Origin: the human T2T-CHM13v2.0 reference genome, Homo sapiens | Assembly: GCA_009914755.4 (NCBI GenBank) | Contig: CP086569.2 | Span: 36,000,001-36,064,000 of the forward strand | DNA length: 64,000 bases | Direction: 5' to 3' | Shown here: piece after piece, positions 24,885 through 48,300 of the stretch | Position numbering within the stretch: position 1 is the first letter of the stretch | How the letters are laid out: every line of letters starts with the position of its first letter | Notes under the pieces: generated by a model | Database searches by the model: none | What the model saw: only the letters and a program-made list of their open reading frames with translations | What the model was told of the DNA's origin: nothing | Position numbers and translations under genes: made by a program

Positions 24885-27800
24885 GAGTCGAAACTAATGG
24901 AATGGAATAGAATGGACTCGACTGGTACGGACTCCAATGGAATGGAATCGAATGGAAGGGAATCGAACGGAATGGACTCGAAGGGAAAAGACTGCAATGG
25001 AAAGGTCTCGAATGGAATGGAAATTAATGGAATGGAATGGAATCGAATGAAATGGAGTCAAAAGGAATGGAATCGAATGGCAAGAAATCGAATGTAATGG
25101 AATCGCAAGGAATTGATGTGAACGGAACGGAATGGAATGGAATCCAAAGGAATGGAATAGAATGGAATGGAATCGAATGGAAAGGACTCGAATGGAAATC
25201 ACTCGAATAGAATGCAATTTAATAAAATAGGATCAAATGTAATGGAATGGAATGGAAAGGAATCGAAACGAAAGGAATGTAGACAGATGGAATGGAATAG
25301 AACAGAGAGCAATGGTATAGAATGGAATGGAATCATCTGGAATGGAATTGAATGGAATGGAATAATATGAAATGGAATGGAATGGAATGGAATGGAATGC
25401 CCTTGAATTAAATGGACTGGAATGGAATGGACTCGAACAGAGTGGAATGGAAAGTGTTGAGATAGAATGGAATGGACTCCTTTGGAATGGTGTAGTATGC
25501 AATGCAATCGACTGGCATGGAATCAAAAGGAATGTAATGGAATGGATTGGACTGGAATGCAATGGACTCGAATAGATTGCAAACGGAATGCAAAGGAATG
25601 GAATGGAATAGTATGGAATGGAATGGAAAGGAATGGAGTGGAATAGACTAGAGTGGAATGCAATGGACTGGAAAGCAATGGACTGGAATGGAACTTTCTT
25701 GAATGGACTGGAATCAAACGGAATGGAATGCAATGCAATCAAATGGCATGGAATAAAATAGAATGAAAGAGAATCAAATGGAATTGAATCGAATGGAATC
25801 GAATGGATTGGAAAGGAATAGAATGGAATGGAATGGAATTGACTCAAATGGAATGGACTAGAATGGAATGGATTCGAATGGAAGGCAAAGGAATGGAATC
25901 TATTGGAATGGACTGTAATGGAATGGAATGGAAGGGATTGGAATGGACTCGAATGGAATGGACTGCAATAGAAAGGATTCGAATGGAATGAAAAAGAATT
26001 GAATGGAATAGAACAGAATGGAATCAAATCGAATGAAATGGAATGGAATAGAAAGGAATGGAATGAAATGGAATGGAAAGGATTCGAATGGAATGCAATC
26101 GAATGGAATGGAATCGAACGGAATGGAATAAAATGGAAGAAAACTGGCAAGAAATGGAATCGAAATGAATGGAGTGTTATGGAACGGACTCAAAAGGAAT
26201 TGAATGTAATAGAATGGAGTGGAGTGGACTCGAATATAATGGACTGGAATGGAATGAAATCACATGGAATGGGAACGAATGGAATGGAATGGAAAGGAAT
26301 GGAATCGAATGGAAAGGAATCGAATGGAAGGGAATGAAATTGAATCAACAGGAATGGAAGGGAATAGAATAGACGGTAATGGAATGGACTCGAATAGAAT
26401 GGACACGAATGCTCAAATTGAATGGACTCGAATGGAATGGAAACGAAAGGAATGTCATCGAATGGAATTGAATCGATTGGAATGAAATCGCATAGAATGG
26501 AGTGGAATCAAATGGAATTGAATCGAAAGGAAAGGAAGCGAATGGACTGAAATGAAATGGAATGGAATTGAATGGAAAGTAATGCAATGGAATAGAATGG
26601 AACGAAATTTCACGGAATGGAATCAAACTGAATGGAATCAAATCAATGGAATCTAATCAAATGGAATGGAAAGGAATTGAATGGAGTAGATTGGATTGGA
26701 TGGGATTGGAATGAAATGTACTGGAAAGGACTCGAATTTCATGAAACGGCATGGAATGAATTGGAACGGAATGGACTCGAATGGAATGGAATGTCATGGA
26801 ATGGCATCAAATGGAATGGCATCAAATGGAATGGAATCGAATGCAATGGAATGCTATGGAATGGAATGGAATGCATTGGAATGGAATGTCCTCTAATGGA
26901 ATGGATTCGAGTGGAATGGAATCGAATATAATGGAGTCGAATGAAATGGAATTGAAAGGAATGGGATCGAATACAATGGAATATACTGGAATGTAATGTA
27001 ATGAACTCGAATGTAATTGACTGGAATGGAATGTACATGAATGGAATGTAATCGAATGGAAAGTAATCCAGTGGAATAGAATCTAATGCAATAAAATCGA
27101 CTCAGATAGAGTAGAATGTAATGGATTGGAGTGCAGTGCAATGGAATGGAATGGAATGGAATGCAATGGAATGGAATGGAATGGAATGGAATGGAATGGA
27201 ATGGGATGGAATGGTATGGAATGGATAGTAATGGACTGGAGTGAAATGGACTGGAAAGGAATGGACTCAAATTGAAAGGGCTCGAAAGGAATGGAGTCAA
27301 ATGGAATGGTCTGGAATGGAATGAACACGAATGTAATGCAATCCAATAGAATGTAATCGAATGGCATGGAATATAAAGAAATGGAATCGGAGAGAATGGA
27401 AACAAATGGAGTGGAATTGAATGGAATGGAATTGAATGGACTGGGAACGAATGGAGTGAAATTGTATGCAGTAGATGGGAATAGAATGGAATGCAAGCGA
27501 AAGGAAAGGAATGGATTGGAATGGAATGGAATTCATTGGAATGGAAGGGAATGTAGTGTAATGGACAGGCCTGGAATAAAGTGGAATGCTACGGTCTCGA
27601 ATGGAATAAAAATGTATGGAATGGAATGCAATGAAATGGAATCGAATGTCATAGAATGTAATGGAATGCAACAAAATGGAATCCAAAATCATTGACTGGA
27701 AAGGGTGGGTGTCGAAAGGAATTGACTCCAATGGAATGGAATCGAATGGAATGGAAGTGAATAGAATCGAACTAAATCGAATGGAATGGAATTGATAGGA

Positions 27801-28443
27801 ACGGAATGGAAAGGAATGCAATGATTTGGCATGGAATGGAATCGAATGGCATCGAACGGAATGGAATGGAATGCAATGGAATGGAATGTATTAGAATGTA
27901 ATGAACTTTAATGGAATGTACTCGAATGGATTCGACTGGAATGGAATGTTCTGGAAGTGAATGGACTCCAATGGAATGGATTCAAAAGGAATGGAATCGT
28001 ACGGAATGGAATCTAATGGAATGGAATTAAATGGAAATGAATCAAATTGAATAGCACGCAATTGAATTGAATGGAATGGAATGCAATGGAATCTAATGAA
28101 ACGGCAAGGAAAGGAATGGAATGGAATGGAATGGGCTGGAATGGAAAGGAATCGAAACGAATGGAATGGAATCGAACTGAAGAGACTGGAATGGAATGCA
28201 CTGGAATGGAAGGGAGTGTAATTGAAGTTTCTCGAAAAAAATGGAATCGAATGGAATGGAATTGAATGGAACGGAATAGAGTCGAATGGAATTGAATGGA
28301 ATGGAATGGACTAGAGTGAAATGGAATCGAACCACAAGGAATGGACAGGAATAGAATGGTCTCGAATTGAATGGAATCGTATGGAATGGCATCAAACGGA
28401 ATGGAATGGACAGCCACGGAATGGAATGCACTCGAATGCAATG
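24885..28443 (+). repeat. HOR unit 8 (3559 bp)
   Basis: Anchors at 24885 and 28444. The anchor at 28444 reads gagtcgacactaatgg (aaac->acac variant). Confidence 0.85.
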
Positions 28444-31400
28444 GAGTCGACACTAATGGACTGGAATAGAATGGACTCGACTGGTACGGACTCCAATGGA
28501 ATGGAATCGAATGGAAGGGAATCGAACGGAATGGACTCGAAGGGAAAAGACTGCAATGGAAAGGTCTCGAATGGAATGGAAATTAATGGAATGGAATGGA
28601 ATCGAATGAAATGGAGTCAAAAGGAATGGAATCGAATGGCAAGAAATCGAATGTAATGGAATCGCAAGGAATTGATGTGAACGGAACGGAATGGAATGGA
28701 ATCCAAAGGAATGGAATAGAATGGAATGGAATCGAATGGAAAGGACTCGAATGGAAATCACTCGAATAGAATGCAATTTAATAAAATAGGATCAAATGTA
28801 ATGGAATGGAATGGAAAGGAATCGAAACGAAAGGAATGGAGACAGATGGAATGGAATGGAACAGAGAGCAATGGTATAGAATGGAATGGAATCATCTGGA
28901 ATGGAATTGAATGGAATGGAATAATATGAAATGGAATGGAATGGAATGGAATGGAATGCCCTTGAATTAAATGGACTGGAATGGAATGGACTCGAACAGA
29001 GTGGAATGGAAAGTGTTGAGATAGAATGGAATGGACTCCTTTGGAATGGTGTAGTATGCAATGCAATCGACTGGCAGGGAATCAAAAGGAATGTAATCGA
29101 ATGGATTGGACTGGAATGCAATGGACTCGAATAGATTGGAAACGGAATGCAAAGGAATGGAATGGAATAGTATGGAATGGAATGGAAAGGAATGGAGTGG
29201 AATAGACTAGAGTGGAATGGAATGGACTGGAAAGCAATGGACTGGAATGGAACTTTCTTGAATGGACTGGAATCAAACGGAATGGAATGCAATACAATCA
29301 AATGGCATGGAATAAAATAGAATGAAAGAGAATCAAATGGAATTGAATCGAATGGAATCGAATGGATTGGAAAGGAATAGAATGGAATGGAATGGAATTG
29401 ACTCAAATGGAATGGACTAGAATGGAATGGATTCGAATGGAAGGCAAAGGAATGGAATCTATTGGAATGGACTGTAATGGAATGGAATGGAAGGGATTGG
29501 AATGGACTCGAATGGAATGGACTGCAATAGAAAGGATTCGAATGGAATGAAAAAGAATTGAATGGAATAGAACAGAATGGAATCAAATCGAATGAAATGG
29601 AATGGAATAGAAAGGAATGGAATGAAATGGAATGGAAAGGATTCGAATGGAATGCAATCGAATGGAATGGAATCGAACGGAATGGAATAAAATGGAAGAA
29701 AACTGGCAAGAAATGGAATCGAAATGAATGGAGTGTTATGGAACGGACTCAAAAGGAATTGAATGTAATAGAATGGAGTGGAGTGGACTCGAATATAATG
29801 GACTGGAATGGAATGAAATCACATGGAATGGGAACGAATGGAATGGAATGGAAAGGAATGGAATCGAATGGAAAGGAATCGAATGGAAGGGAATGAAATT
29901 GAATCAACAGGAATGGAAGGGAATAGAATAGACGGTAATGGAATGGACTCGAATAGAATGGACACGAATGCTCAAATTGAATGGACTCGAATGGAATGGA
30001 AACGAAAGGAATGTCATCGAATGGAATTGAATCGATTGGAATGAAATCGCATAGAATGGAGTGGAATCAAATGGAATTGAATCGAAAGGAAAGGAAGCGA
30101 ATGGACTGAAATGAAATGGAATGGAATTGAATGGAAAGTAATGCAATGGAATAGAATGGAACGAAATTTCACGGAATGGAATCAAACTGAATGGAATCAA
30201 ATCAATGGAATCAAATCAAATGGAATGGAAAGGAATTGAATGGAGTAGATTGGATTGGATGGGATTGGAATGAAATGTACTGGAAAGGACTCGAATTTCA
30301 TGAAACGGAATGGAATGAATTGGAACGGAATGGACTCGAATGGAATGGAATGTCATGGAATGGCATCAAATGGAATGGCATCAAATGGAATGGAATCGAA
30401 TGCAATGGAATGCTATGGAATGGAATGGAATGCATTGGAATGGAATGTCCTCTAATGGAATGGATTCGAGTGGAATGGAATCGAATATAATGGAGTCGAA
30501 TGAAATGGAATTGAAAGGAATGGGATCGAATACAATGGAATATACTGGAATGTAATGTAATGAACTCGAATGTAATTGACTGGAATGGAATGTACATGAA
30601 TGGAATGTAATCGAATGGAAAGTAATCCAATGGAATAGAATCTAATGCAATAAAACCGACTCAGATAGAGTAGAATGTAATGGAATGGAGTGCAGTGCAA
30701 TGGAAGGGAATGGAATTGAATGCAATGGAATGGAATGGAATGGAATGGAATGGAATGGAATGGAATGGAATGGGATGGAATGGTATGGAATGGATAGTAA
30801 TGGACTGGAGTGAAATGGACTGGAAAGGAATGGACTCAAATTGAAAGGGCTCGAAAGGAATGGAGTCAAATGGAATGGTCTGGAATGGAATGAACACGAA
30901 AGTAATGCAATCCAATAGAATGGAATCGAATGGCATGGAATATAAAGAAATGGAATCGAAGAGAATGGAAACAAATGGAATGGAATTGAATGGAATGGAA
31001 TTGAATGGAATGGGAACGAATGGAGTGAAATTGTATGCAGTAGAAGGGAATAGAATGTAATGTAAGCGAAAGGAAAGGAATGGATTGGAATGGAATGGAA
31101 ATCATTGGAATGGAAGGGAATGTAGTGTAATGGACAGGCCTGGAATAAAGTGGAATGCTACGGTCTCGAATGGAATAAAAATGTATGGAATGGAATGCAA
31201 TGAAACGGAATCGAATGTCATAAAATGTAATGGAATGCAAAAAAATGGAATCCAAAATCATTGACTGGAAAGGCTGGGTGTCGAAAGGAATTGACTCCAA
31301 TGGAATGGAATCGAATGGAATGGAAGTGAATAGAATCGAACTAAATCGAATGGAATGGAATTGATAGGAACGGAATGGAAAGGAATGCAATGATTTGGCA

Positions 31401-32012
31401 TGGAATGGAATCGAATGGCATCGAATGGAATGGAATGGAATGCAATGGAATGGAATGTATTAGAATGTAATGAACTTTAATGGAATGTACTCGAATGGAT
31501 TCGACTGGAATGGAATGTTCTGGAAGTGAATGGGCTCCAATGGAATGGAATCAAAAGGAATGGAATCGTACGGAATGGAATCTAATGTAATGGAATTAAA
31601 TGGAAATGAATCAAATTGAATAGCACGGAATTGAATTGAATGGAATCGAATGCAATGGAATCTAATGAAACGGAAAGGAAAGGAATGGAATGGAATGGAA
31701 TGGGCTGGAATGGAAAGGAATCGAAACGAATGGAATGGAATCGAACTGAAGAGACTGGAATGGAATGCACTGGAATGGAAGGGAGTGTAATGGAAGGTTC
31801 TCGAAAGAAATGGAATCGAATGGAATGGAATTGAATGGAACGGAATAGAGTCGAATGGAATTGAATGGAATGGAATGGACTAGAGTGAAATGGAATCGAA
31901 CCACAAGGAATGGACAGGAATAGAATGGTCTCGAATTGAATGGAATCGTATGGAATGGCATCAAACGGAATGGAATGGACAGCCACGGAATGGAATGCAC
32001 TCGAATGCAATG
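28444..32012 (+). repeat. HOR unit 9 (3569 bp)
   Basis: Anchors at 28444 and 32013. Confidence 0.85.
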
Positions 32013-34073
32013 GAGTCGAAACTAATGGACTGGAATAGAATGGACTCGACTGGTACGGACTCCAATGGAATGGAATCGAATGGAAGGGAATCGAACGGAA
32101 TGGACTCGAAGGGAAAAGACTGCAATGGAAAGGTCTCGAATGGAATGGAAATTAATGGAATGGAATGGAATCGAATGAAATGGAGTCAAAAGGAATGGAA
32201 TCGAATGGCAAGAAATCGAATGTAATGGAATCGCAAGGAATTGATGTGAACGGAACGGAATGGAATGGAATCCAAAGGAATGGAATAGAATGGAATGGAA
32301 TCGAATGGAAAGGACTAGAATGGAAATCACTCGAATAGAATGCAATTTAATAAAATAGGATCAAATGTAATGGAATGGAATGGAAAGGAATCGAAACGAA
32401 AGGAATGGAGACAGATGGAATGGAATGGAACAGAGAGCAATGGTATAGAATGGAATGGAATCATCTGGAATGGAATTGAATGGAATGGAATAATATGAAA
32501 TGGAATGGAATGGAATGGAATGGAATGCCCTTGAATTAAATGGACTGGAATGGAATGGACTCGAACAGAGTGGAATGGAAAGTGTTGAGATAGAATGGAA
32601 TGGACTCCTTTGGAATGGTCTAGTATGCAATGCAATCGACTGGCAGGGAATCAAAAGGAATGTAATGGAATGGATTGGACTGGAATGCAATGGACAGGAA
32701 TAGATTGGAAACGGAATGCAAAGGAATGGAATGGAATAGTATGGAATGGAATGGAAAGGAATGGAGTGGAATAGACTAGAGTGGAATGCAATGGACTGGA
32801 AAGCAATGGACTGGAATGGAACTTTCTTGAATGGACTGGAATCAAACGGAATGGAATGCAATGCAATCAAATGGCATGGAATAAAATAGAATGAAAGAGA
32901 ATCAAATGGAATTGAATCGAATGGAATCGAATGGATTGGAAAGGAATAGAATGGAATGGAATGGAATTCACTCAAATGGAATGGACTAGAATGGAATGGA
33001 TTCGAATGGAAGGCAAAGGAATGGAATCTATTGGAATGGACTGTAATGGAATGGAATGGAATTGAATGGAATGGGAACGAATGGAGTGAAATTGTATGCA
33101 GTAGAAGGGAATAGAATGGAATGCAAGCAAAAGGAAAGGAATGGATTGGAATGGAATGGAATTCATTGGAATGGAAGGGAATGTAGTGTAATGGACAGGC
33201 CTGGAATAAAGTGGAATGCTACGGTCTCGAATGGAATAAAAATGTATGGAATGGAATGCAATGAAATGGAATCGAATGTCATAGAATGTAATGGAATGCA
33301 ACAAAATGGAATCCAATATCATTGACTGGAAAGGCTGGGTGTTGAAAGGAATTGACTCCAATGGAATGGAATCGAATGGAATGGAAGTGAATAGAATCGA
33401 ACTAAATCGAATGGAATGGAATTGATAGGAACGGAATGGAAAGGAATGCAATGATTTGGCATGGAATGGAATCGAATGGCATCGAATGGAATGGAATGGA
33501 ATGCAATGGAATGGAATGTATTAGAATGTAATGAACTTTAATGGAATGTACTCGAATGGATTCGACTGGAATGGAATGTTCTGGAAGTGAATGGACTCCA
33601 ATGGAATGGATTCAAAAGGAATGGAATCGTACGGAATGGAATCTAATGGAATGGAATTAAATGGAAATGAATCAAATTGAATAGCACGGAATTGAATTGA
33701 ATGGAATGGAATGCAATGGAATCTAATGAAACGGAAAGGAAAGGAATGGAATGGAATGGAATGGGCTGGAATGGAAAGGAATCGAAACGAATGGAATGGA
33801 ATCGAACTGAAGAGACTGGAATGGAATGCACTGGAATGGAAGGGAGTGTAATGGAAGGTTCTCGAAAAAAATGGAATGGAATGGAATGGAATTGAATGGA
33901 ACGGAATAGAGTCGAATGGAATTGAATGGAATGGAATGGACTAGAGTGAAATGGAATCGAACCACAAGGAATGGACAGGAATAGAATGGTCTCGAATTGA
34001 ATGGAATCGTATGGAATGGCATCAAACGGAATGGAATGGACAGCCACGGAATGGAATGCACTCGAATGCAATG
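32013..34073 (+). repeat. HOR unit 10: 2061-bp deletion derivative (lacks ~1.5 kb, unit-relative ~1055-2560)
   Basis: Anchors at 32013 and 34074. Sequence near 33040-33070 joins the ...ctgtaatggaatggaatgga segment (unit-relative ~1040-1060) directly to attgaatggaatgggaacgaatggagtgaaattgtatgcag (unit-relative ~2545-2590). Confidence 0.85.
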
Positions 34074-37000
34074 GAGTCGAAACTAATGGACTGGAATAGA
34101 ATGGACTCGACTGGTACGGACTCCAATGGAATGGAATCGAATGGAAGGGAATCGAACGGAATGGACTCGAAGGGAAAAGACTGCAATGGAAAGGTCTCGA
34201 ATGGAATGGAAATTAATGGAATGGAATGGAATCGAATGAAATGGAGTCAAAAGGAATGGAATCGAATGGCAAGAAATCGAATGTAATGGAATCGCAAGGA
34301 ATTGATGTGAACGGAACGGAATGGAATGGAATCCAAAGGAATGGAATAGAATGGAATGGAATCGAATGGAAAGGACTCGAATGGCAATCACTCGAATAGA
34401 ATGCAATTTAATAAAATAGGATCAAATGTAATGGAATGGAATGGAAAGGAATCGAAACGAAAGGAATGGAGACAGATGGAATGGAATGGAACAGAGAGCA
34501 ATGGTATAGAATGGAATGGAATCATCTGGAATGGAATTGAATGGAATGGAATAATATGAAATGGAATGGAATGGAATGGAATGGAATGGAATGGAATGCC
34601 CTTGAATTAAATGGACTGGAATGGAATGGACTCGAACAGAGTGGAATGGAAAGTGTTGAGATAGAATGGAATGGACTCCTTTGGAATGGTCTAGTATGCA
34701 ATGCAATCGACTGGCAGGGAATCAAAAGGAATGTAATCGAATGGATTGGACTGGAATGCAATGGACTCGAATAGATTGGAAACGGAATGCAAAGGAATGG
34801 AATGGAATAGTATGGAATGGAATGGAAAGGAATGGAGTGGAATAGACTAGAGTGGAATGGAATGGACTGGAAAGCAATGGACTGGAATGGAACTTTCTTG
34901 AATGGACTGCAATCAAACGGAATGGAATGCAATGCAATCAAATGGCATGGAATAAAATAGAATGAAAGAGAATCAAATGGAATTGAATCGAATGGAATCG
35001 AATGGATTGGAAAGGAATAGAATGGAATGGAATGGAATGGACTCAAATGGAATGGACTAGAATGGAATGGATTCGAATGGAAGGCAAAGGAATGGAATCT
35101 ATTGGAATGGACTGTAATGGAATGGAATGGAAGGGATTGGAATGGACTCGAATGGAATGGACTGCAATAGAAAGGATTCGAATGGAATGAAAAAGAATTG
35201 AATGGAATAGAACAGAATGGAATCAAATCGAATGAAATGGAATGGAATAGAAAGGAATGGAATGAAATGGAATGGAAAGGATTCGAATGGAATGCAATCG
35301 AATGGAATGGAATCGAACGGAATGGAATAAAATGGAAGAAAACTGGCAAGAAATGGAATCGAAATGAATGGAGTGTTATGGAACGGACTCAAAAGGAATT
35401 GAATGTAATAGAATGGAGTGGAGTGGACTCGAATATAATGGACTGGAATGGAATGAAATCACATGGAATGGGAACGAATGGAATGGAATGGAAAGGAATG
35501 GAATCGAATGGAAAGGAATCGAATGGAAGGGAATGAAATTGAATCAACAGGAATGGAAGGGAATAGAATAGACGGTAATGGAATGGACTCGAATAGAATG
35601 GACACGAATGCTCAAATTGAATGGACTCGAATGGAATGGAAACGAAAGGAATGTCATCGAATGGAATTGAATCGATTGGAATGAAATCGCATAGAATGGA
35701 GTGGAATCAAATGGAATTGAATCGAAAGGAAAGGAAGCGAATGGACTGAAATGAAATGGAATGGAATTGAATGGAAAGTAATGCAATGGAATAGAATGGA
35801 ACGAAATTTCACGGAATGGAATCAAACTGAATGGAATCAAATCAATGGAATCTAATCAAATGGAATGGAAAGGAATTGAATGGAGTAGATTGGATTGGAT
35901 GGGATTGGAATGAAATGTACTGGAAAGGACTCGAATTTCATGAAACGGAATGGAATGAATTGGAACGGAATGGACTCGAATGGAATGGAATGTCATGGAA
36001 TGGCATCAAATGGAATGGCATCAAATGGAATGGAATCGAATGCAATGGAATGCTATGGAATGGAATGGAATGCATTGGAATGGAATGTCCTCTAATGGAA
36101 TGGATTCGAGTGGAATGGAATCGAATATAATGGAGTCGAATGAAATGGAATTGAAAGGAATGGGATCGAATAAAATGGAATATACTGGAATGTAATGTAA
36201 TGAACTCGAATGTAATTGACTGGAATGGAATGTACATGAATGGAAGGTAATCGAATGGAAAGTAATCCAATGGAATAGAATCTAATGCAATAAAACCGAC
36301 TCAGATAGAGTAGAATGTAATGGAATGGAGTGCAGTGCAATGGAATGGAATGGAATTGAATGCAATGGAATGGAATGGAATGTAATGGAATGGAATGGAA
36401 TGGAATGGAATGGAATGGAATGGGATGGAATGGTATGGAATGGATAGTAATGGACTGGAGTGAAATGGACTGGAAAGGAATGGACTCAAATTGAAAGGGC
36501 TCGAAAGGAATGGAGTCAAATGGAATGGTCTGGAATGGAATGAACACGAATGTAATGCAATCCAATAGAATGGAATCGAATGGCATGGAATATAAAGAAA
36601 TGGATTCGAAGAGAATGGAAACAAATGGAATGGAATTGAATGGAATGGAATTGAATGGAATGGGAACGAATGGAGTGAAATTGTATGCAGTAGAAGGGAA
36701 TAGAAAGGAATGTAAGCGAAAGGAAAGGAATGGATTGGAATGGAATGGAATTCATTGGAATGGAAGGGAATGTAGTGTAATGGACAGGCCTGGAATAAAG
36801 TGGAATGCTACTGTCTCGAATGGAATAAAAATGTATGGAATGGAATGCAATGAAATGGAATCGAATGTCATAGAATGTAATGGAATGCAACAAAATGGAA
36901 TCCAATATCATTGACTGGAAAGGCTGGGTGTCGAAAGGAATTGACTCCAATGGAATGGAATCGAATGGAATGGAAGTGAATAGAATCGAACTAAATCGAA

Positions 37001-37662
37001 TGGAATGGAATTGATAGGAACGGAATGGAAAGGAATGCAATGATTTGGCATGGAATGGAATCGAATGGCATCGAATGGAATGGAATGGAATGCAATGGAA
37101 TGGAATGTATTAGAATGGAATGAACTTTAATGGAATGTACTCGAATGGATTCGACTGGAATGGAATGTTCTGGAAGTGAATGGACTCCAATGGAATGGAT
37201 TCAAAAGGAATGGAATCGTACGGAATGGAATCTAATGGAATGGAATTAAATGGAAATGAATCAAATTGAATAGCACGGAATTGAATTGAATGGAATGGAA
37301 TGCAATGGAATCTAATGAAACGGAAAGGAAAGGAATGGAATGGAATGGAAAGGGCTGGAATGGAAAGGAATCGAAACGAATGGAATGGAATCGAACTGAA
37401 GAGACTGGAATGGAATGCACTGGAATGGAAGGGAGTGTAATGGAAGGTTCTCGAAAAAAATGGAATCGAATGGAATGGAATTGAATGGAACGGAATAGAG
37501 TCGAATGGAATTGAATGGAATGGAATGGACTAGAGTGAAATGGAATCGAACCACAAGGAATGGAGAGGAATAGAATGGTCTCGAATTGAATGGAATCGTA
37601 TGGAATGGCATCAAACGGAATGGAATGGACAGCCACGGAATGGAATGCACTCGAATGCAATG
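34074..37662 (+). repeat. HOR unit 11 (3589 bp; longest, with extra pentamers at ~34561-34600)
   Basis: Anchors at 34074 and 37663. The 67-aa MEWNG ORF seen in other units is 77 aa here (34541..34774). Confidence 0.85.
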
Positions 37663-39723
37663 GAGTCGAAACTAATGGACTGGAATAGAATGGACTCGAC
37701 TGGTACGGACTCCAATGGAATGGAATCGAATGGAAGGGAATCGAACGGAATGGACTCGAAGGGAAAAGACTGCAATGGAAAGGTCTCGAATGGAATGGAA
37801 ATTAATGGAATGGAATGGAATCGAATGAAATGGAGTCAAAAGGAATGGAATCGAATGGCAAGAAATCGAATGTAATGGAATCGCAAGGAATTGATGTGAA
37901 CGGAACGGAATGGAATGGAATCCAAAGGAATGGAATAGAATGGAATGGAATCGAATGGAAAGGACTAGAATGGAAATCACTCGAATAGAATGCAATTTAA
38001 TAAAATAGGATCAAATGTAATGGAATGGAATGGAAAGGAATCGAAACGAAAGGAATGGAGACAGATGGAATGGAATGGAACAGAGAGCAATGGTATAGAA
38101 TGGAATGGAATCATCTGGAATGGAATTGAATGGAATGGAATAATATGAAATGGAATGGAATAGAATGGAATGGAATGCCCTTGAATTAAATGGACTGGAA
38201 TGGAATGGACTCGAACAGAGTGGAATGGAAAGTGTTGAGATAGAATGGAATGGACTCCTTTGGAATGGTCTAGTATGCAATGCAATCGACTGGCAGGGAA
38301 TCAAAAGGAATGTAATGGAATGGATTGGACTGGAATGCAATGGACAGGAATAGATTGGAAACGGAATGCAAAGGAATGGAATGGAATAGTATGGAATGGA
38401 ATGGAAAGGAATGGAGTGGAATAGACTAGAGTGGAATGCAATGGACTGGAAAGCAATGGACTGGAATGGAACTTTCTTGAATGGACTGGAATCAAACGGA
38501 ATGGAATGCAATGCAATCAAATGGCATGGAATAAAATAGAATGAAAGAGAATCAAATGGAATTGAATCGAATGGAATCGAATGGATTGGAAAGGAATAGA
38601 ATGGAATGGAATGGAATTCACTCAAATGGAATGGACTAGAATGGAATGGATTCGAATGGAAGGCAAAGGAATGGAATCTATTGGAATGGACTGTAATGGA
38701 ATGGAATGGAATTGAATGGAATGGGAACGAATGGAGTGAAATTGTATGCAGTAGAAGGGAATAGAATGGAATGCAAGCAAAAGGAAAGGAATGGATTGGC
38801 ATGGAATGGAATTCATTGGAATGGAAGGGAATGTAGTGTAATGGACAGGCCTGGAATAAAGTGGAATGCTACGGTCTCGAATGGAATAAAAATGTATGGA
38901 ATGGAATGCAATGAAATGGAATCGAATGTCATAGAATGTAATGGAATGCAACAAAATGGAATCCAATATCATTGACTGGAAAGGCTGGGTGTTGAAAGGA
39001 ATTGACTCCAATGGAATGGAATCGAATGGAATGGAAGTGAATAGAATCGAACTAAATCGAATGGAATGGAATTGATAGGAACGGAATGGAAAGGAATGCA
39101 ATGATTTGGCATGGAATGGAATCGAATGGCATCGAATGGAATGGAATGGAATGCAATGGAATGGAATGTATTAGAATGTAATGAACTTTAATGGAATGTA
39201 CTCGAATGGATTCGACTGGAATGGAATGTTCTGGAAGTGAATGGACTCCAATGGAATGGATTCAAAAGGAATGGAATCGTACGGAATGGAATCTAATGGA
39301 ATGGAATTAAATGGAAATGAATCAAATTGAATAGCACGGAATTGAATTGAATGGAATGGAATGCAATGGAATCTAATGAAACGGAAAGGAAAGGAATGGA
39401 ATGGAATGGAATGGGCTGGAATGGAAAGGAATCGAAACGAATGGAATGGAATCGAACTGAAGAGACTGGAATGGAATGCACTGGAATGGAAGGGAGTGTA
39501 ATGGAAGGTTCTCGAAAAAAATGGAATGGAATGGAATGGAATTGAATGGAACGGAATAGAGTCGAATGGAATTGAATGGAATGGAATGGACTAGAGTGAA
39601 ATGGAATCGAACCACAAGGAATGGACAGGAATAGAATGGTCTCGAATTGAATGGAATCGTATGGAATGGCATCAAACGGAATGGAATGGACAGCCACGGA
39701 ATGGAATGCACTCGAATGCAATG
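37663..39723 (+). repeat. HOR unit 12: 2061-bp deletion derivative
   Basis: Anchors at 37663 and 39724. Same junction as unit 10, at ~38700-38712. Confidence 0.85.
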
Positions 39724-42700
39724 GAGTCGAAACTAATGGACTGGAATAGAATGGACTCGACTGGTACGGACTCCAATGGAATGGAATCGAATGGAAGGGA
39801 ATCGAACGGAATGGACTCGAAGGGAAAAGACTGCAATGGAAAGGTCTCGAATGGAATGGAAATTAATGGAATGGAATGGAATCGAATGAAATGGAGTCAA
39901 AAGGAATGGAATCGAATGGCAAGAAATCGAATGTAATGGAATCACAAGGAATTGATGTGAACGGAACGGAATGGAATGGAATCCAAAGGAATGGAATAGA
40001 ATGGAATGGAATCGAATGGAAAGGACTCGAATGGCAATCACTCGAATAGAATGCAATTTAATAAAATAGGATCAAATGTAATGGAATGGAATGGAAAGGA
40101 ATCGAAACGAAAGGAATGGAGACAGATGGAATGGAATGGAACAGAGAGCAATGGTATAGAATGGAATGGAATCATCTGGAATGGAATTGAATGGAATGGA
40201 ATAATATGAAATGGAATGGAATGGAATGGAATGGAATGCCCTTGAATTAAATGGACTGGAATGGAATGGACTCGAACAGAGTGGAATGGAAAGTGTTGAG
40301 ATAGAATGGAATGGACTCCTTTGGAATGGTCTAGTATGCAATGCAATCGACTGGCAGGGAATCAAAAGGAATGTAATCGAATGGATTGGACTGGAATGCA
40401 ATGGACTCGAATAGATTGGAAACGGAATGCAAAGGAATGGAATGGAATAGTATGGAATGGAATGGAAAGGAATGGAGTGGAATAGACTAGAGTGGAATGG
40501 AATGGACTGGAAAGCAATGGACTGGAATGGAACTTTCTTGAATGGACTGGAATCAAACGGAATGGAATGCAATGCAATCAAATGGCATGGAATAAAATAG
40601 AATGAAAGAGAATCAAATGGAATTGAATCGAATGGAATCGAATGGATTGGAAAGGAATAGAATGGAATGGAATAGAATGGACTCAAATGGAATGGACTAG
40701 AATGGAATGGATTCGAATGGAAGGCAAAGGAATGGAATCTATTGGAATGGACTGTAATTGAATGGAATGGAAGGGATTGGAATGGACTCGAATAGAATGG
40801 ACTGCAATAGAAAGGATTCGAATGGAATGAAAAAGAATTGAATGGAATAGAACAGAATGGAATCAAATCGAATGAAATGGAATGGAATAGAAAGGAATGG
40901 AATGAAATGGAATGGAAAGGATTCGAATGGAATGCAATCGAATGGAATGGAATCGAACGGAATGGAATAAAATGGAAGAAAACTGGCAAGAAATGGAATC
41001 GAAATGAATGGAGTGTTATGGAACGGACTCAAAAGGAATTGAATGTAATAGAATGGAGTGGAGTGGACTCGAATATAATGGACTGGAATGGAATGAAATC
41101 ACATGGAATGGGAACGAATGGAATGGAATGGAAAGGAATGGAATCGAATGGAAAGGAATCGAATGGAAGGGAATGAAATTGAATCAACAGGAATGGAAGG
41201 GAATAGAATAGACGGTAATGGAATGGACTCGAATAGAATGGACACGAATGCTCAAATTGAATGGACTCGAATGGAATGGAAACGAAAGGAATGTCATCGA
41301 ATGGAATTGAATCGATTGGAATGAAATCGCATAGAATGGAGTGGAATCAAATGGAATTGAATCGAAAGGAAAGGAAGCGAATGGACTGAAATGAAATGGA
41401 ATGGAATTGAATGGAAAGTAATGCAATGGAATAGAATGGAACGAAATTTCACGGAATGGAATCAAACTGAATGGAATCAAATCAATGGAATCAAATCAAA
41501 TGGAACGGAAAGGAATTGAATGGAGTAGATTGGATTGGATGGGATTGGAATGAAATGTACTGGAAAGGACTCGAATTTCATGAAACGGAATGGAATGAAT
41601 TGGAACGGAATGGACTCGAATGGAATGGAATGTCATGGAATGGCATCAAATGGAATGGCATCAAATGGAATGGAATCGAATGCAATGGAATGCTATGGAA
41701 TGGAATGGAATGCATTGGAATGGAATGTCCTCTAATGGAATGGATTCGAGTGGAATGGAATCGAATATAATGGAGTCGAATGAAATGGAATTGAAAGGAA
41801 TGGGATCGAATACAATGGAATATACTGGAATGTAATGTAATGAACTCGAATGTAATTGACTGGAATGGAATGTACATGAATGGAAGGTAATCGAATGGAA
41901 AGTAATCCAATGGAATAGAATCTAATGCAATAAAACCGACTCAGATAGAGTAGAATGTAATGGAATGGAGTGCAGTGCAATGGAATGGAATGGAATTGAA
42001 TGCAATGGAATGGAATGGAATGTAATGGAATGGAATGGAATGGAATGGAATGGAATGGAATGGGATGGAATGGTATGGAATGGATAGTAATGGACTGGAG
42101 TGAAATGGACTGGAAAGGAATGGACTCAAATTGAAAGGGCTCGAAAGGAATGGAGTCAAATGGAATGGTCTGGAATGGAATGAACACGAATGTAATGCAA
42201 TCCAATAGAATGGAATCGAATGGCATGGAATATAAAGAAATGGATTCGAAGAGAATGGAAACAAATGGAATGGAATTGAATGGAATGGAATTGAATGGAA
42301 TGGGAACGAATGGAGTGAAATTGTATGCAGTAGAAGGGAATAGAAAGGAATGCAAGCGAAAGGAAAGGAATGGATTGGAATGGAATGGAATTCATTGGAA
42401 TGGAAGGGAATGTAGTGTAATGGACAGGCCTGGAATAAAGTGGAATGCTACGGTCTCGAATGGAATAAAAATGTATGGAATGGAATGCAATGAAATGGAA
42501 TCGAATGTCATAGAATGTAATGGAATGCAACAAAATGGAATCCAATATCATTGACTGGAAAGGCTGGGTGTCGAAAGGAATTGACTCCAATGGAATGGAA
42601 TCGAATGGAATGGAAGTGAATAGAATCGAACTAAATCGAATGGAATGGAATTGATAGGAACGGAATGGAAAGGAATGCAATGATTTGGCATGGAATGGAA

Positions 42701-43302
42701 TCGAATGGCATCGAATGGAATGGAATGGAATGCAATGGAATGGAATGTATTAGAATGGAATGAACTTTAATGGAATGTACTCGAATGGATTCGACTGGAA
42801 TGGAATGTTCTGGAAGTGAATGGACTCCAATGGAATGGATTCAAAAGGAATGGAATCGTACGGAATGGAATCTAATGGAATGGAATTAAATGGAAATGAA
42901 TCAAATTGAATAGCACGGAATTGAATTGAATGGAATGGAATGCAATGGAATCTAATGAAACGGAAAGGAAAGGAATGGAATGGAATGGAATGGGCTGGAA
43001 TGGAAAGGAATCGAAACGAATGGAATGGAATCGAACTGAAGAGACTGGAATGGAATGCACTGGAATGGAAGGGAGTGTAATGGAAGGTTCTCGAAAAAAA
43101 TGGAATCGAATGGAATGGAATTGAATGGAACGGAATAGAGTCGAATGGAATTGAATGGAATGGAATGGACTAGAGTGAAATGGAATCGAACCACAAGGAA
43201 TGGAGAGGAATAGAATGGTCTCGAATTGAATGGAATCGTATGGAATGGCATCAAACGGAATGGAATGGACAGCCACGGAATGGAATGCACTCGAATGCAA
43301 TG
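39724..43302 (+). repeat. HOR unit 13 (3579 bp)
   Basis: Anchors at 39724 and 43303. Confidence 0.85.
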
Positions 43303-45363
43303 GAGTCGAAACTAATGGACTGGAATAGAATGGACTCGACTGGTACGGACTCCAATGGAATGGAATCGAATGGAAGGGAATCGAACGGAATGGACTCGAA
43401 GGGAAAAGACTGCAATGGAAAGGTCTCGAATGGAATGGAAATTAATGGAATGGAATGGAATCGAATGAAATGGAGTCAAAAGGAATGGAATCGAATGGCA
43501 AGAAATCGAATGTAATGGAATCGCAAGGAATTGATGTGAACGGAACGGAATGGAATGGAATCCAAAGGAATGGAATAGAATGGAATGGAATCGAATGGAA
43601 AGGACTAGAATGGAAATCACTCGAATAGAATGCAATTTAATAAAATAGGATCAAATGTAATGGAATGGAATGGAAAGGAATCGAAACGAAAGGAATGGAG
43701 ACAGATGGAATGGAATGGAACAGAGAGCAATGGTATAGAATGGAATGGAATCATCTGGAATGGAATTGAATGGAATGGAATAATATGAAATGGAATGGAA
43801 TAGAATGGAATGGAATGCCCTTGAATTAAATGGACTGGAATGGAATGGACTCGAACAGAGTGGAATGGAAAGTGTTGAGATAGAATGGAATGGACTCCTT
43901 TGGAATGGTCTAGTATGCAATGCAATCGACTGGCAGGGAATCAAAAGGAATGTAATGGAATGGATTGGACTGGAATGCAATGGACAGGAATAGATTGGAA
44001 ACGGAATGCAAAGGAATGGAATGGAATAGTATGGAATGGAATGGAAAGGAATGGAGTGGAATAGACTAGAGTGGAATGCAATGGACTGGAAAGCAATGGA
44101 CTGGAATGGAACTTTCTTGAATGGACTGGAATCAAACGGAATGGAATGCAATGCAATCAAATGGCATGGAATAAAATAGAATGAAAGAGAATCAAATGGA
44201 ATTGAATCGAATGGAATCGAATGGATTGGAAAGGAATAGAATGGAATGGAATGGAATTCACTCAAATGGAATGGACTAGAATGGAATGGATTCGAATGGA
44301 AGGCAAAGGAATGGAATCTATTGGAATGGACTGTAATGGAATGGAATGGAATTGAATGGAATGGGAACGAATGGAGTGAAATTGTATGCAGTAGAAGGGA
44401 ATAGAATGGAATGCAAGCAAAAGGAAAGGAATGGATTGGAATGGAATGGAATTCATTGGAATGGAAGGGAATGTAGTGTAATGGACAGGCCTGGAATAAA
44501 GTGGAATGCTACGGTCTCGAATGGAATAAAAATGTATGGAATGGAATGCAATGAAATGGAATCGAATGTCATAGAATGTAATGGAATGCAACAAAATGGA
44601 ATCCAATATCATTGACTGGAAAGGCTGGGTGTCGAAAGGAATTGACTCCAATGGAATGGAATCGAATGGAATGGAAGTGAATAGAATCGAACTAAATCGA
44701 ATGGAATGGAATTGATAGGAACGGAATGGAAAGGAATGCAATGATTTGGCATGGAATGGAATCGAATGGCATCGAATGGAATGGAATGGAATGCAATGGA
44801 ATGGAATGTATTAGAATGTAATGAACTTTAATGGAATGTACTCGAATGGATTCGACTGGAATGGAATGTTCTGGAAGTGAATGGACTCCAATGGAATGGA
44901 TTCAAAAGGAATGGAATCGTACGGAATGGAATCTAATGGAATGGAATTAAATGGAAATGAATCAAATTGAATAGCACGGAATTGAATTGAATGGAATGGA
45001 ATGCAATGGAATCTAATGAAACGGAAAGGAAAGGAATGGAATGGAATGGAATGGGCTGGAATGGAAAGGAATCGAAACGAATGGAATGGAATCGAACTGA
45101 AGAGACTGGAATGGAATGCACTGGAATGGAAGGGAGTGTAATGGAAGGTTCTCGAAAAAAATGGAATGGAATGGAATGGAATTGAATGGAACGGAATAGA
45201 GTCGAATGGAATTGAATGGAATGGAATGGACTAGAGTGAAATGGAATCGAACCACAAGGAATGGACAGGAATAGAATGGTCTCGAATTGAATGGAATCGT
45301 ATGGAATGGCATCAAACGGAATGGAATGGACAGCCACGGAATGGAATGCACTCGAATGCAATG
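43303..45363 (+). repeat. HOR unit 14: 2061-bp deletion derivative
   Basis: Anchors at 43303 and 45364. Same junction, at ~44340-44352. Confidence 0.85.
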
Positions 45364-48300
45364 GAGTCGAAACTAATGGACTGGAATAGAATGGACTCGA
45401 CTGGTACGGACTCCAATGGAATGGAATCGAATGGAAGGGAATCGAACGGAATGGACTCGAAGGGAAAAGACTGCAATGGAAAGGTCTCGAATGGAATGGA
45501 AATTAATGGAATGGAATGGAATCGAATGAAATGGAGTCAAAAGGAATGGAATCGAATGGCAAGAAATCGAATGTAATGGAATCGCAAGGAATTGATGTGA
45601 ACGGAACGGAATGGAATGGAATCCAAAGGAATGGAATAGAATGGAATGGAATCGAATGGAAAGGACTCGAATGGCAATCACTCGAATAGAATGCAATTTA
45701 ATAAAATAGGATCAAATGTAATGGAATGGAATGGAAAGGAATCGAAACGAAAGGAATGGAGACAGATGGAATGGAATGGAACAGAGAGCAATGGTATAGA
45801 ATGGAATGGAATCATCTGGAATGGAATTGAATGGAATGGAATAATATGAAATGGAATGGAATGGAATGGAATGGAATGGAATGGAATGCCCTTGAATTAA
45901 ATGGACTGGAATGGAATGGACTCGAACAGAGTGGAATGGAAAGTGTTGAGATAGAATGGAATGGACTCCTTTGGAATGGTCTAGTATGCAATGCAATCGA
46001 CTGGCAGGGAATCAAAAGGAATGTAATCGAATGGATTGGACTGGAATGCAATGGACTCGAATAGATTGGAAACGGAATGCAAAGGAATGGAATGGAATAG
46101 TATGGAATGGAATGGAAAGGAATGGAGTGGAATAGACTAGAGTGGAATGGAATGGACTGGAAAGCAATGGACTGGAATGGAACTTTCTTGAATGGACTGG
46201 AATCAAACGGAATGGAATGCAATGCAATCAAATGGCATGGAATAAAATAGAATGAAAGAGAATCAAATGGAATTGAATCGAATGGAATCGAATGGATTGG
46301 AAAGGAATAGAATGGAATGGAATGGAATGGACTCAAATGGAATGGACTAGAATGGAATGGATTCGAATGGAAGGCAAAGGAATGGAATCTATTGGAATGG
46401 ACTGTAATTGAATGGAATGGAAGGGATTGGAATGGACTCGAATAGAATGGACTGCAATAGAAAGGATTCGAATGGAATGAAAAAGAATTGAATGGAATAG
46501 AACAGAATGGAATCAAATCGAATGAAATGGAATGGAATAGAAAGGAATGGAATGAAATGGAATGGAAAGGATTCGAATGGAATGCAATCGAATGGAATGG
46601 AATCGAACGGAATGGAATAAAATGGAAGAAAACTGGCAAGAAATGGAATCGAAATGAATGGAGTGTTATGGAACGGACTCAAAAGGAATTGAATGTAATA
46701 GAATGGAGTGGAGTGGACTCGAATATAATGGACTGGAATGGAATGAAATCACATGGAATGGGAACGAATGGAATGGAATGGAAAGGAATGGAATCGAATG
46801 GAAAGGAATCGAATGGAAGGGAATGAAATTGAATCAACAGGAATGGAAGGGAATAGAATAGACGGTAATGGAATGGACTCGAATAGAATGGACACGAATG
46901 CTCAAATTGAATGGACTCGAATGGAATGGAAACGAAAGGAATGTCATCGAATGGAATTGAATCGATTGGAATGAAATCGCATAGAATGGAGTGGAATCAA
47001 ATGGAATTGAATCGAAAGGAAAGGAAGCGAATGGACTGAAATGAAATGGAATGGAATTGAATGGAAAGTAATGCAATGGAATAGAATGGAACGAAATTTC
47101 ACGGAATGGAATCAAACTGAATGGAATCAAATCAATGGAATCTAATCAAATGGAATGGAAAGGAATTGAATGGAGTAGATTGGATTGGATGGGATTGGAA
47201 TGAAATGTACTGGAAAGGACTCGAATTTCATGAAACGGAATGGAATGAATTGGAACGGAATGGACTCGAATGGAATGGAATGTCATGGAATGGCATCAAA
47301 TGGAATGGCATCAAATGGAATGGAATCGAATGCAATGGAATGCTATGGAATGGAATGGAATGCATTGGAATGGAATGTCCTCTAATGGAATGGATTCGAG
47401 TGGAATGGAATCGAATATAATGGAGTCGAATGAAATGGAATTGAAAGGAATGGGATCGAATACAATGGAATATACTGGAATGTAATGTAATGAACTCGAA
47501 TGTAATTGACTGGAATGGAATGTACATGAATGGAAGGTAATCGAATGGAAAGTAATCCAATGGAATAGAATCTAATGCAATAAAACCGACTCAGATAGAG
47601 TAGAATGTAATGGAATGGAGTGCAGTGCAATGGAATGGAATGGAATTGAATGCAATGGAATGGAATGGAATGTAATGGAATGGAATGGAATGGAATGGAA
47701 TGGAATGGAATGGGATGGAATGGTATGGAATGGATAGAAATGGACTGGAGTGAAATGGACTGGAAAGGAATGGACTCAAATTGAAAGGGCTCGAAAGGAA
47801 TGGAGTCAAATGGAATGGTCTGGAATGGAATGAACACGAATGTAATGCAATCCAATAGAATGGAATCGAATGGCATGGAATATAAAGAAATGGATTCGAA
47901 GAGAATGGAAACAAATGGAATGGAATTGAATGGAATGGAATTGAATGGAATGGGAACGAATGGAGTGAAATTGTATGCAGTAGAAGGGAATAGAAAGGAA
48001 TGCAAGCGAAAGGAAAGGAATGGATTGGAATGGAATGGAATTCATTGGAATGGAAGGGAATGTAGTGTAATGGACAGGCCTGGAATAAAGTGGAATGCTA
48101 CGGTCTCGAATGGAATAAAAATGTATGGAATGGAATGCAATGAAATGGAATCGAATGTCATAGAATGTAATGGAATGCAACAAAATGGAATCCAATATCA
48201 TTGACTGGAAAGGCTGGGTGTCGAAAGGAATTGACTCCAATGGAATGGAATCGAATGGAATGGAAGTGAATAGAATCGAACTAAATCGAATGGAATGGAA

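What the first reader, a model, noticed from the sequence alone, without database searches (positions are those of the whole stretch)
28444..45363. A 2061-bp deletion-derivative unit alternates with full units as a ~5.64-kb compound super-repeat, three times over
Units 10, 12 and 14 are each exactly 2061 bp. They alternate with full units 9/11/13 and 11/13/15. This gives anchor spacings of 3569+2061, 3589+2061 and 3579+2061 (about 5.63-5.65 kb, repeated three times over 16.9 kb). The three short units share private variants, for example a ...SEFHS... peptide and an extra GAATTC site. The shared variants argue for a single deletion followed by amplification of a full+short pair as a larger repeat unit. 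This is nested higher-order structure inside the satellite array.
Basis: seen in the sequence. Interest (0 to 1): 0.6.

Follow-up and report, generated by a model that had tools for sequence, protein, structure and literature searches.

The report
Local compound repeat in human DYZ1
Inside an ordinary stretch of the human Y-chromosome satellite DYZ1, one repeat unit lost about 1.5 kb and was then copied together with its full-length neighbour by misaligned exchange, giving about three 5.64-kb compound repeats: a real, clean but textbook example of how satellite arrays evolve.

Summary
GGCC (HaeIII) sites, one per unit, are spaced 3569, 2061, 3589, 2061, 3579, 2061, 3589 bp. The window is human DYZ1/HSat3A6: (GGAAT)n base, modal 3564-bp unit, published DYZ1 primers at their published offsets, and only the HSat3A6 diagnostic 24-mer.

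The three 2061-bp units carry the same roughly 1518-bp deletion. The junction is identical over ±60 bp and lies in a 13-bp microhomology that occurs 40 times per unit. They also share a private G>C that creates the extra EcoRI site. A single deletion is therefore well supported.

The first "pair" (H8 plus the 5' part of H9) is not an amplified copy. The high-identity periodic domain runs from about 31916 to about 49240, roughly three periods that differ by 0.12-0.23%, against about 1% between unrelated units. H11 and H13 are hybrids, H15-type on the 5' side and H9-type on the 3' side. Both ends of the domain map to the same 401-bp interval of the unit. That is the footprint of an unequal exchange between the short unit and the full unit 5.65 kb downstream, followed by a second exchange.

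This is a neutral local variant of a known kind. Hallast et al. already report DYZ1 units of 1,165-3,608 bp. Interest is low.

The parts
31137..33197 (.). Short unit H9 (2061 bp, HaeIII-phased). It is the founder-type deletion derivative. Its first 779 bp are unrelated to those of H11/H13; the rest differs from them by 1-2 mismatches.
36787..38847 (.). Short unit H11 (2061 bp). A hybrid: unit positions 1-764 are H15-type and positions from 1166 to the end are H9-type.
42427..44487. Short unit H13 (2061 bp). The same hybrid as H11, differing from it by 2 mismatches in the 1994 columns ungapped in all units and 3 over the whole unit. Its 5' 758 columns are identical to H15/H16/H17.
33049..33061 (.). 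Deletion junction, copy 1. The 13-bp microhomology GAATGGAATGGAA joins unit position about 1897 to about 3416; 1518 bp are missing relative to H15.
38699..38711 (.). Deletion junction, copy 2, identical over ±60 bp.
44339..44351 (.). Deletion junction, copy 3, identical over ±60 bp.
32964..32969 (.). Private EcoRI site (G>C at unit position 1818), 84 bp left of the junction. Also present at 38614-38619 and 44254-44259.
33198..36786 (.). Full unit H10 (3589 bp). It belongs to the tight H10/H12/H14 cluster: 6-9 mismatches in 3459 columns, with private 666G and 1173C.
38848..42426 (.). Full unit H12 (3579 bp), same cluster. It lacks the 10-bp insert at unit position 1347.
44488..48076 (.). Full unit H14 (3589 bp), same cluster.
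31916..49241 (.). Maximal extent of the high-identity 5.64/5.65-kb periodic domain, about 3 periods. Period 1 vs 2: 13 mismatches and 1 indel. Period 2 vs 3: 7 mismatches and 2 indels.
31916..32316 (.). Left crossover interval (unit positions 765-1165 in H9). The homologous intervals are 37566-37966 (H11), 43206-43606 (H13) and 48841-49241 (H15, the right end of the domain).
27568..31136 (.). Full unit H8 (3569 bp). It has also lost the canonical EcoRI site (GAAATC at 31098-31103).

Best explanation
The window is human Y-chromosome DYZ1 (HSat3A6) satellite. I infer the following history.

1. One DYZ1 unit lost about 1.52 kb (unit positions 1898-3415, counted from the HaeIII site on the + strand). 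The cause was an out-of-register exchange or replication slippage at a 13-bp GAATGGAATGGAA microhomology. This produced a 2061-bp unit, represented by H9.
2. An unequal exchange, most likely between sister chromatids, paired this short unit with the full unit that begins 5.65 kb downstream (H15-type). The crossover fell within unit positions 765-1165. It duplicated a 5.65-kb segment and created a hybrid short unit with an H15-type 5' part and an H9-type 3' part.
3. A second exchange, with the two periods one period out of register, added a third period.

The result is a non-coding and presumably neutral local compound repeat of about 5.64 kb, not a functional element.

Shown directly: the identical junctions, the hybrid structure, the domain limits and the family identity. 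Inferred: the type of exchange (sister chromatid versus intrachromatid or replication-based) and the order of events.
For: Identity:
- A (GGAAT)n base with 69% matches across 12-63991.
- The modal k-mer period is 3564, with one HaeIII site per unit. This matches the published 3,564/3,569-bp HaeIII fragments of DYZ1.
- Published DYZ1 primers C, D, E, F and the corrected H hit once per unit at the published offsets.
- The HSat3A6-specific 24-mer occurs 37 times, and the 13 other subfamily 24-mers occur 0 times.
- Independent contaminant contigs are 96-99% identical to the unit over its full length.

Single deletion:
- The gap is the same (reference dimer 5461->6980) in all three copies.
- The flanks are identical over ±60 bp, with 13 bp of microhomology.
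- That 13-mer occurs 40 times per unit, so about 780 partner pairs were available.
- 1818C is private to the short units.

Exchange model:
- 5' partition: H13 is 0 mismatches and H11 is 1 mismatch from H15-17, while H9 is 10-11 from them.
- 3' partition: H9, H11 and H13 are 1-2 mismatches apart but 12-14 from H15.
- Change points: H9 vs H11, 13 mismatches in 779 bp then 2 in 1282 bp (p=1.4e-4). H13 vs H15, 0 in 1180 bp then 11 in 732 bp (p=2.5e-5).
- Both change points bracket the same unit interval, 765-1165.

Other support:
- H10, H12 and H14 differ by 6-9 mismatches in 3459 columns, against 25-51 for other pairs.
- Yq12 shows frequent sister-chromatid exchange, whole-unit de novo structural variants and interlocus gene conversion.
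Against: H15-H17 lack a 15-bp segment (after unit position 317) that H11 and H13 carry. The donor must therefore have been an H15-type unit before that 15-bp loss, or a relative no longer present.

H10, H12 and H14 show a mosaic of shared variants: 146T in H10/H12, 1897T/1932A in H12/H14, 2631T in H10/H14, and 3491T in H8/H10. Two clean exchanges do not explain these, so later gene conversion or further exchanges are needed.

No reads are available to validate the assembly. Neither the reciprocal product nor an unrearranged ancestral haplotype is available.
Confidence: 0.8

Rival explanations
1. A [full + short] pair phased as H8+H9, H10+H11, H12+H13 was amplified three times. The first copy later diverged or was overwritten by gene conversion from neighbouring units.
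For: The anchor spacings fit. H8 and H10 alone share 3491T. Gene conversion is documented in Yq12.
Against: It needs conversion of more than 4.3 kb of contiguous sequence (all of H8 plus 779 bp of H9), ending exactly where H13 stops matching H15 (unit positions 765-1165). That coincidence is unexplained under this model. H8 is as far from H10/H12/H14 (25-28 mismatches) as from unrelated units.
Confidence: 0.1
2. Three independent, recurrent deletions at a deletion-prone site in DYZ1 units.
For: The pentamer satellite offers abundant microhomology: the 13-mer occurs 40 times per unit.
Against: The partner pair is the same each time, out of about 780 possible. The flanks are identical over ±60 bp. 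The units share private 1818C and share 1166A, 1545A/1546G, 1638C and 3496A. Their 3' partitions differ by only 1-2 mismatches. There were 0 junctions against 20 normal left and 31 normal right breakpoint contexts in independent DYZ1 contigs.
Confidence: 0.01
3. An assembly artefact: collapse or mis-join in a long-read assembly of a near-identical array.
For: Satellite arrays are error-prone in assembly. No reads are available here. The junction is absent from every other collection searched.
Against: The three copies each have their own substitutions and indels, in a phylogenetically coherent recombinant pattern. A mis-join would not produce a private base change 84 bp from the junction in all three copies. 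The nulls in other collections are weak, because short-read contigs collapse to the consensus unit.
Confidence: 0.04
4. A selected, functional new higher-order repeat, for example one that alters protein-binding or transcript content of DYZ1.
For: None found here.
Against: There are only about 3 periods, in a 64-kb window of otherwise canonical units. The structure is fully explained by neutral exchange. The sequence is non-coding pentamer satellite.
Confidence: 0.02

Closest known systems
DYZ1 / HSat3A6, the roughly 3.56-kb HaeIII repeat of human Yq12 (Nakahori 1986 as cited; Altemose 2014; Rhie 2023; Hallast 2023)
   Same: The pentamer base, the 3564/3569-bp units with one HaeIII site, the published primers and the diagnostic 24-mer all match. 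Unit-length heterogeneity is already reported: 1,165-3,608 bp, with 95% of units over 3 kb.
   Different: The specific 2061-bp unit, its junction and the 5.64-kb compound period are not mentioned in the text or supplement I could search.
Structural-variant higher-order repeats generated by unequal crossing-over in satellite arrays (Smith 1976 model, from my own knowledge; examples of deleted-monomer HORs in Warburton 2008)
   Same: A deletion-derivative unit plus its neighbour becomes a longer period that is locally amplified. Copies of the long period are more alike than their subunits are to each other.
   Different: There are only about 3 periods and the structure is not homogenised across an array. 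Here the recombinant unit and the 401-bp exchange interval can be read directly.
The 2.7-kbp repeat of the Yq11/Yq12 transition zone (Hallast 2023)
   Same: It is also a shortened unit derived largely from DYZ1 (77% of it is 97% identical to DYZ1).
   Different: That repeat is a DYZ18/DYZ1 chimera forming its own array. The 2061-bp unit is pure DYZ1 with an internal deletion and alternates with full units.
The Yq11.1 pericentromeric GAATG array with '3360 bp, 5630 bp' HORs (Warburton 2008 Table 1)
   Same: It is a Y-linked GAATG satellite with a period numerically close to 5.63-5.65 kb.
   Different: Its base HOR is different (3360 vs 3564 bp). This window carries the HSat3A6 24-mer and none of the other Y-specific subfamily, HSat3A3. 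Any relationship was not testable here.

Membership tests
DYZ1 / HSat3A6 | Built from diverged GGAAT/ATTCC pentamers | tested here: met
   TRF reports periods of 15/20/25 with an AATGG consensus over 12-63991.
DYZ1 / HSat3A6 | A higher-order unit of about 3.56 kb, cut once by HaeIII (3,564/3,569-bp fragments) | tested here: met
   15 of 18 HaeIII intervals are 3541-3589 bp, and 3564 is the modal k-mer distance.
DYZ1 / HSat3A6 | The subfamily-specific 24-mer TCGTTTCGATTCCTTTCCATTCCA is present and those of other HSat2/3 subfamilies are absent | tested here: met
   37 hits against 0 for the 13 other subfamily 24-mers.
DYZ1 / HSat3A6 | Published DYZ1 primers match at their published unit coordinates | tested here: met
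   Primers C, D, E and F match exactly once per unit at about 1700, 2600, 880 and 1700 bp from the HaeIII site. Primer H matches after restoring one G. Primers A, B and G have no exact match. The Y1.1/Y1.2 sexing primers, recalled from memory, give a 154-bp amplicon in every unit.
DYZ1 / HSat3A6 | Located in Yq12 and male-specific | not testable with these tools
   No human assembly or read set is available. Support is indirect, through the subfamily markers only.
Higher-order repeat (compound period) within a satellite | Copies of the long period are more similar to each other than the constituent subunits are | tested here: met
   Successive periods differ by 0.12-0.23%. Short versus adjacent full units differ by 13-18 mismatches in 1994 shared columns, and unrelated full units differ by about 1%.
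Higher-order repeat (compound period) within a satellite | The period is repeated many times and homogenised over an array or domain | tested here: not met
   There are only about 2.8-3.1 periods (31916-49241). The rest of the 64-kb window is canonical single units.
Unequal-exchange duplication product | A recombinant unit with a parental change point, and both ends of the duplicated domain mapping to the same position in the unit | tested here: met
   Partitioned distances and Fisher tests. Both boundaries fall in unit positions 765-1165.
Unequal-exchange duplication product | A reciprocal (contracted) product or an ancestral single-copy haplotype exists in related chromosomes | not testable with these tools
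   This needs other Y assemblies.

The most novel reading that the evidence does not exclude
The 5.64-kb compound unit is a nascent DYZ1 higher-order repeat caught within a few exchange events of its birth. It would be restricted to one branch of the Y phylogeny and variable in copy number among men. Because the recombinant unit and the exchange interval are readable, it could serve as a datable marker for measuring unequal-exchange and conversion rates in Yq12. A rough inference: 0.12-0.23% divergence divided by (2 x 3.86e-7 per bp per generation) gives about 1,600-3,000 generations.
Probability: 0.3. Interest if true: 0.3.

Novelty: new member of a known kind. Interest (0 to 1): 0.15.

Why it matters
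It matters little for biology at large. The finding illustrates the accepted model that satellite arrays evolve by out-of-register exchange, and short DYZ1 units are already on record. Its modest value is practical. The junction 42-mer and the private EcoRI variant are unique tags inside an otherwise nearly unmappable 20-Mb satellite. They could anchor reads, validate Yq12 assemblies, or mark a Y lineage. The 2,061-bp HaeIII fragment would co-migrate with the classical 2.1-kb male-specific band, which I recall is attributed to DYZ2. At 3 copies its contribution to that band would be negligible.

Tried and rejected
- Literature searches for the Y1.1 primer sequence found nothing, so that primer's identity rests on my memory. 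I replaced it with published primers and k-mers.
- A search of the Hallast supplement for '2061' and '5.6 kbp' gave 0 hits.
- A literature search for the 2.1-kb HaeIII band assignment gave 0 papers.
- Junction searches in genome contigs, metagenome contigs and viral contigs gave 0 hits. The positive control showed that DYZ1 is present in the first two (39 loci) but absent from viral contigs. The null is weak because the short-read contigs are consensus-collapsed single units.
- A 250-bp shift-identity scan could not discriminate, because all units are about 99% alike. I replaced it with explicit difference lists.
- MAFFT placed the large gap differently, as 1432 columns plus fragments. I used the affine-gap pairwise alignment for the breakpoints.
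- I rejected a coding interpretation. 'SEFHS' is only the minus-strand reading of AGTGAATTCCATTCC at the private EcoRI site.
- I rejected a link to the pericentromeric HSat3A3 array, because its 24-mer is absent.
Full report
WHAT THE WINDOW IS

The whole 64-kb window is a diverged (GGAAT)n satellite (TRF, 12-63991). GC content is uniform at 38-40% and the strand skew is strong. On top of the pentamers sits a higher-order unit of about 3.56 kb. The commonest distance between successive identical 24-mers is 3564 bp, and GGCC (HaeIII) occurs exactly once per unit.

This matches human Y-chromosomal DYZ1 as published:
- A HaeIII unit of 3,564 bp, with 3,569 bp the commonest fragment in six of seven complete Yq12 assemblies.
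- About 38% GC.
- Also known as HSat3A6.

I tested membership with published sequences. DYZ1 primers C, D, E and F of PMC3925983 match exactly once per unit at the published distances from the HaeIII site, and primer H matches after restoring one G. Primers A, B and G have no exact match. The commonest HSat3A6-specific 24-mer of Altemose 2014 occurs 37 times, about twice per unit. The corresponding 24-mers of the 13 other HSat2/3 subfamilies occur 0 times, including the other Y-specific subfamily, HSat3A3. The Y1.1/Y1.2 sexing primers, which I recalled from memory and could not find in the paper library, give a 154-bp amplicon in every unit. Chromosomal location cannot be tested with these tools.

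THE OBSERVATION

The HaeIII intervals are 3544, 3569, 3559, 3541, 3568, 3554, 3554, 3569, 2061, 3589, 2061, 3579, 2061, 3589, 3564, 3564, 3564 and 3558. I call these units H1 to H18. The short units are H9 (31137-33197), H11 (36787-38847) and H13 (42427-44487).

The extra EcoRI sites (32964, 38614, 44254) are confined to the short units. 'SEFHS' occurs only three times in the six-frame translation, at those sites on the minus strand. It is a reading of AGTGAATTCCATTCC and not a peptide.

ONE DELETION, NOT THREE

I aligned each full+short pair to a dimer of H15/H16 with an affine-gap aligner. Each pair gave the same large gap (reference dimer 5461->6980). This removes unit positions 1898-3415, or 1518 bp, with junctions at 33048|33049, 38698|38699 and 44338|44339.

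The 60 bp on each side of the junction are identical in the three copies. The join lies in a 13-bp microhomology, GAATGGAATGGAA. That 13-mer occurs 40 times per unit, so about 780 partner pairs were available. The junction 42-mer is found only at these three places in the window.

The three units also share G>C at unit position 1818, which creates the EcoRI site and is private to them. They share 1166A, 1545A/1546G, 1638C and 3496A with at most one or two other units. Primer E (published 861-880) is missing from them, as expected if it lies inside the deletion.

Independent recurrence is therefore effectively excluded.

WHAT WAS AMPLIFIED

- **Full units.** H10, H12 and H14 form a tight cluster, with 6-9 mismatches in 3459 columns. 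H8 is 25-28 mismatches from them, no closer than an unrelated unit.
- **Short units.** H11 and H13 differ by 2 mismatches in the columns shared by all units, but H9 differs from them by 11-13.
- **Left limit.** Between H8+H9 and H10+H11 there are 39 differences up to 31915 and only 2 from 31916 to 33197.
- **Right limit.** H13 matches H15 with no substitution, only a 15-bp indel, for its first 1180 bp. It then differs at 11 sites in 732 bp. Both change points are significant (p=1.4e-4 and 2.5e-5).
- **5' partition (unit positions 1-764).** H13 is identical to H15/H16/H17 and H11 is 1 mismatch from them. H9 is 10-11 mismatches from all of these.
- **3' partition (1166 to the end).** H9, H11 and H13 are 1-2 mismatches apart and 12-14 from H15.

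So H11 and H13 are recombinants, H15-type on the 5' side and H9-type on the 3' side. Both ends of the high-identity domain map to the same 401-bp interval of the unit (765-1165).

The domain runs from 31916 to at most 49241, or about 3 periods. Period 1 vs 2 differ by 13 mismatches and 1 indel (0.23%). Period 2 vs 3 differ by 7 mismatches and 2 indels (0.12%). Background divergence between unrelated units is about 1%.

MECHANISM

Shown: the identical junctions, the hybrid units and the coincident domain ends.

Inferred:
1. A 1.5-kb deletion at a microhomology produced an H9-type short unit.
2. An unequal exchange paired that short unit with the full unit 5.65 kb downstream. It crossed over in positions 765-1165, duplicating 5.65 kb and creating the hybrid short unit.
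3. A second exchange, one period out of register, added a third period.

This is the classical unequal-crossover route to longer periodicities (Smith 1976, from my own knowledge). It fits what is reported for Yq12:
- Evolution by unequal exchange, with sister-chromatid exchanges in about 15% of Strand-seq libraries.
- Unequal sister-chromatid crossing-over proposed for DYZ1/DYZ2 dynamics.
- About one whole-unit de novo structural variant per Y transmission, and 29% of de novo SNVs attributable to interlocus gene conversion.

Loose ends:
- H15-H17 lack a 15-bp segment that H11 and H13 retain. The donor therefore predates that loss or is no longer present.
- A few variants are shared among H10, H12, H14 and H8 in a mosaic pattern that implies later conversion.

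A rough age uses the published Yq12 rate of 3.86e-7 per bp per generation, which includes conversion. It gives about 1,600-3,000 generations. This is an inference with wide uncertainty.

RIVALS

- **Three-fold amplification of [H8+H9] followed by conversion of the first copy.** This needs a conversion tract of more than 4.3 kb ending exactly at the interval where H13 stops matching H15, so I rate it about 0.1.
- **Independent deletions.** About 0.01.
- **Assembly artefact.** This cannot be excluded without reads. It is unlikely given the coherent recombinant pattern and the private substitution 84 bp from the junction. About 0.04.
- **A selected function.** No support.

COMPARISON WITH INDEPENDENT SEQUENCE

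The junction is absent from the bacterial and archaeal genome collection, the metagenome collection and the viral collection. A positive control with the HaeIII-site motif found 33 metagenome stretches and 6 contigs of 'bacterial' assemblies that are DYZ1. They are 96-99% identical to H15 over whole units. They carry 20 normal left and 31 normal right breakpoint contexts, no junction and no private EcoRI variant. The canonical arrangement is therefore the norm and the junction is at most rare. Most of these contigs are consensus-collapsed short-read assemblies, so the null is weak. Viral contigs contain no DYZ1 at all.

WHAT IS KNOWN

Hallast et al. performed the same virtual HaeIII digest. 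They reported considerable fragment-length variation, and DYZ1 units of 1,165-3,608 bp with 95% above 3 kb. Neither '2061' nor a 5.6-kbp period appears in the text or the supplement held.

Warburton 2008 described the 3.6-kb HOR of the Yq12 GAATG array. It also described HOR variants lacking monomers, attributed to unequal crossing-over, in other arrays. It lists a Yq11.1 GAATG array with 3360- and 5630-bp HORs. The numerical similarity to 5.63-5.65 kb is noted, but this window belongs to a different subfamily.

VERDICT

The feature is real and the single-deletion inference is correct. The amplification model is right in kind but wrong in phase. The evidence supports a specific reconstruction involving two exchanges.

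It is a new instance of a well-known kind of satellite variant, local (about 3 periods) and presumably neutral. Interest is 0.15. Its main use would be as a unique tag within Yq12.

Noticed in passing
window 48077-58768 (H15-H17); 6223-13350 (H2, H3): H15 and H16 are identical 3564-bp units, and H17 differs from them by 2-11 mismatches. H2 and H3 differ by 4-6. Recent single-unit duplications therefore sit next to the compound repeat.
   Followed up: partly
window 2679-31136 vs 33198-58768: Units H1-H8 are about 1% diverged from one another, while H10-H17 are much more homogeneous. The founder short unit H9 sits at the boundary between the diverged and the homogenised domain.
   Followed up: no
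window 31098-31103: H8 alone has lost the canonical EcoRI site 39 bp upstream of the HaeIII site (GAATTC>GAAATC). This gives the one 5435-bp EcoRI interval.
   Followed up: yes
whole window (unit positions 317, 546, 1126, 1318, 1347, 1898, 2254, 3127-3147): Most small indels between units are multiples of 5 bp (5, 10, 15, 30), as expected from pentamer slippage. Unit positions 3127-3147 are an indel hotspot.
   Followed up: no
L034-L039 (e.g. BMRF01000076.1 Actinomadura cremea JCM 3308; BMTN01000077.1 Streptomyces kurssanovii; BNBB01000077.1 Streptosporangium violaceochromogenes): Contigs deposited in bacterial genome assemblies contain the DYZ1 HaeIII-site motif. The two I aligned, L034 and L039, are about 99% identical to the DYZ1 unit over their full length. 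This is human male DNA contamination of the kind Rhie et al. described.
   Followed up: partly
L021 (BNJU01001848.1), L009, L027: These DYZ1-like sequences are only about 90% identical to the window's unit. In L021 the GGCC spacing is 3454-3458 bp. They may be a diverged DYZ1-related subfamily or a peripheral array.
   Followed up: no
literature: PMC2588610 Table 1: A Yq11.1 GAATG array is listed with HORs of 3360 and 5630 bp. The second value is close to the 5.63-5.65-kb period here. The window carries no HSat3A3 marker, and any relationship is untested.
   Followed up: partly
L020 (JACSEC010000082.1) 2110-2437; L025; L015; L022: Some contaminant contigs show extra or oddly spaced GGCC or HaeIII-motif copies (305, 320, 1907 and 1369 bp apart). 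These could be other rearranged DYZ1 units or short-read assembly chimeras.
   Followed up: no
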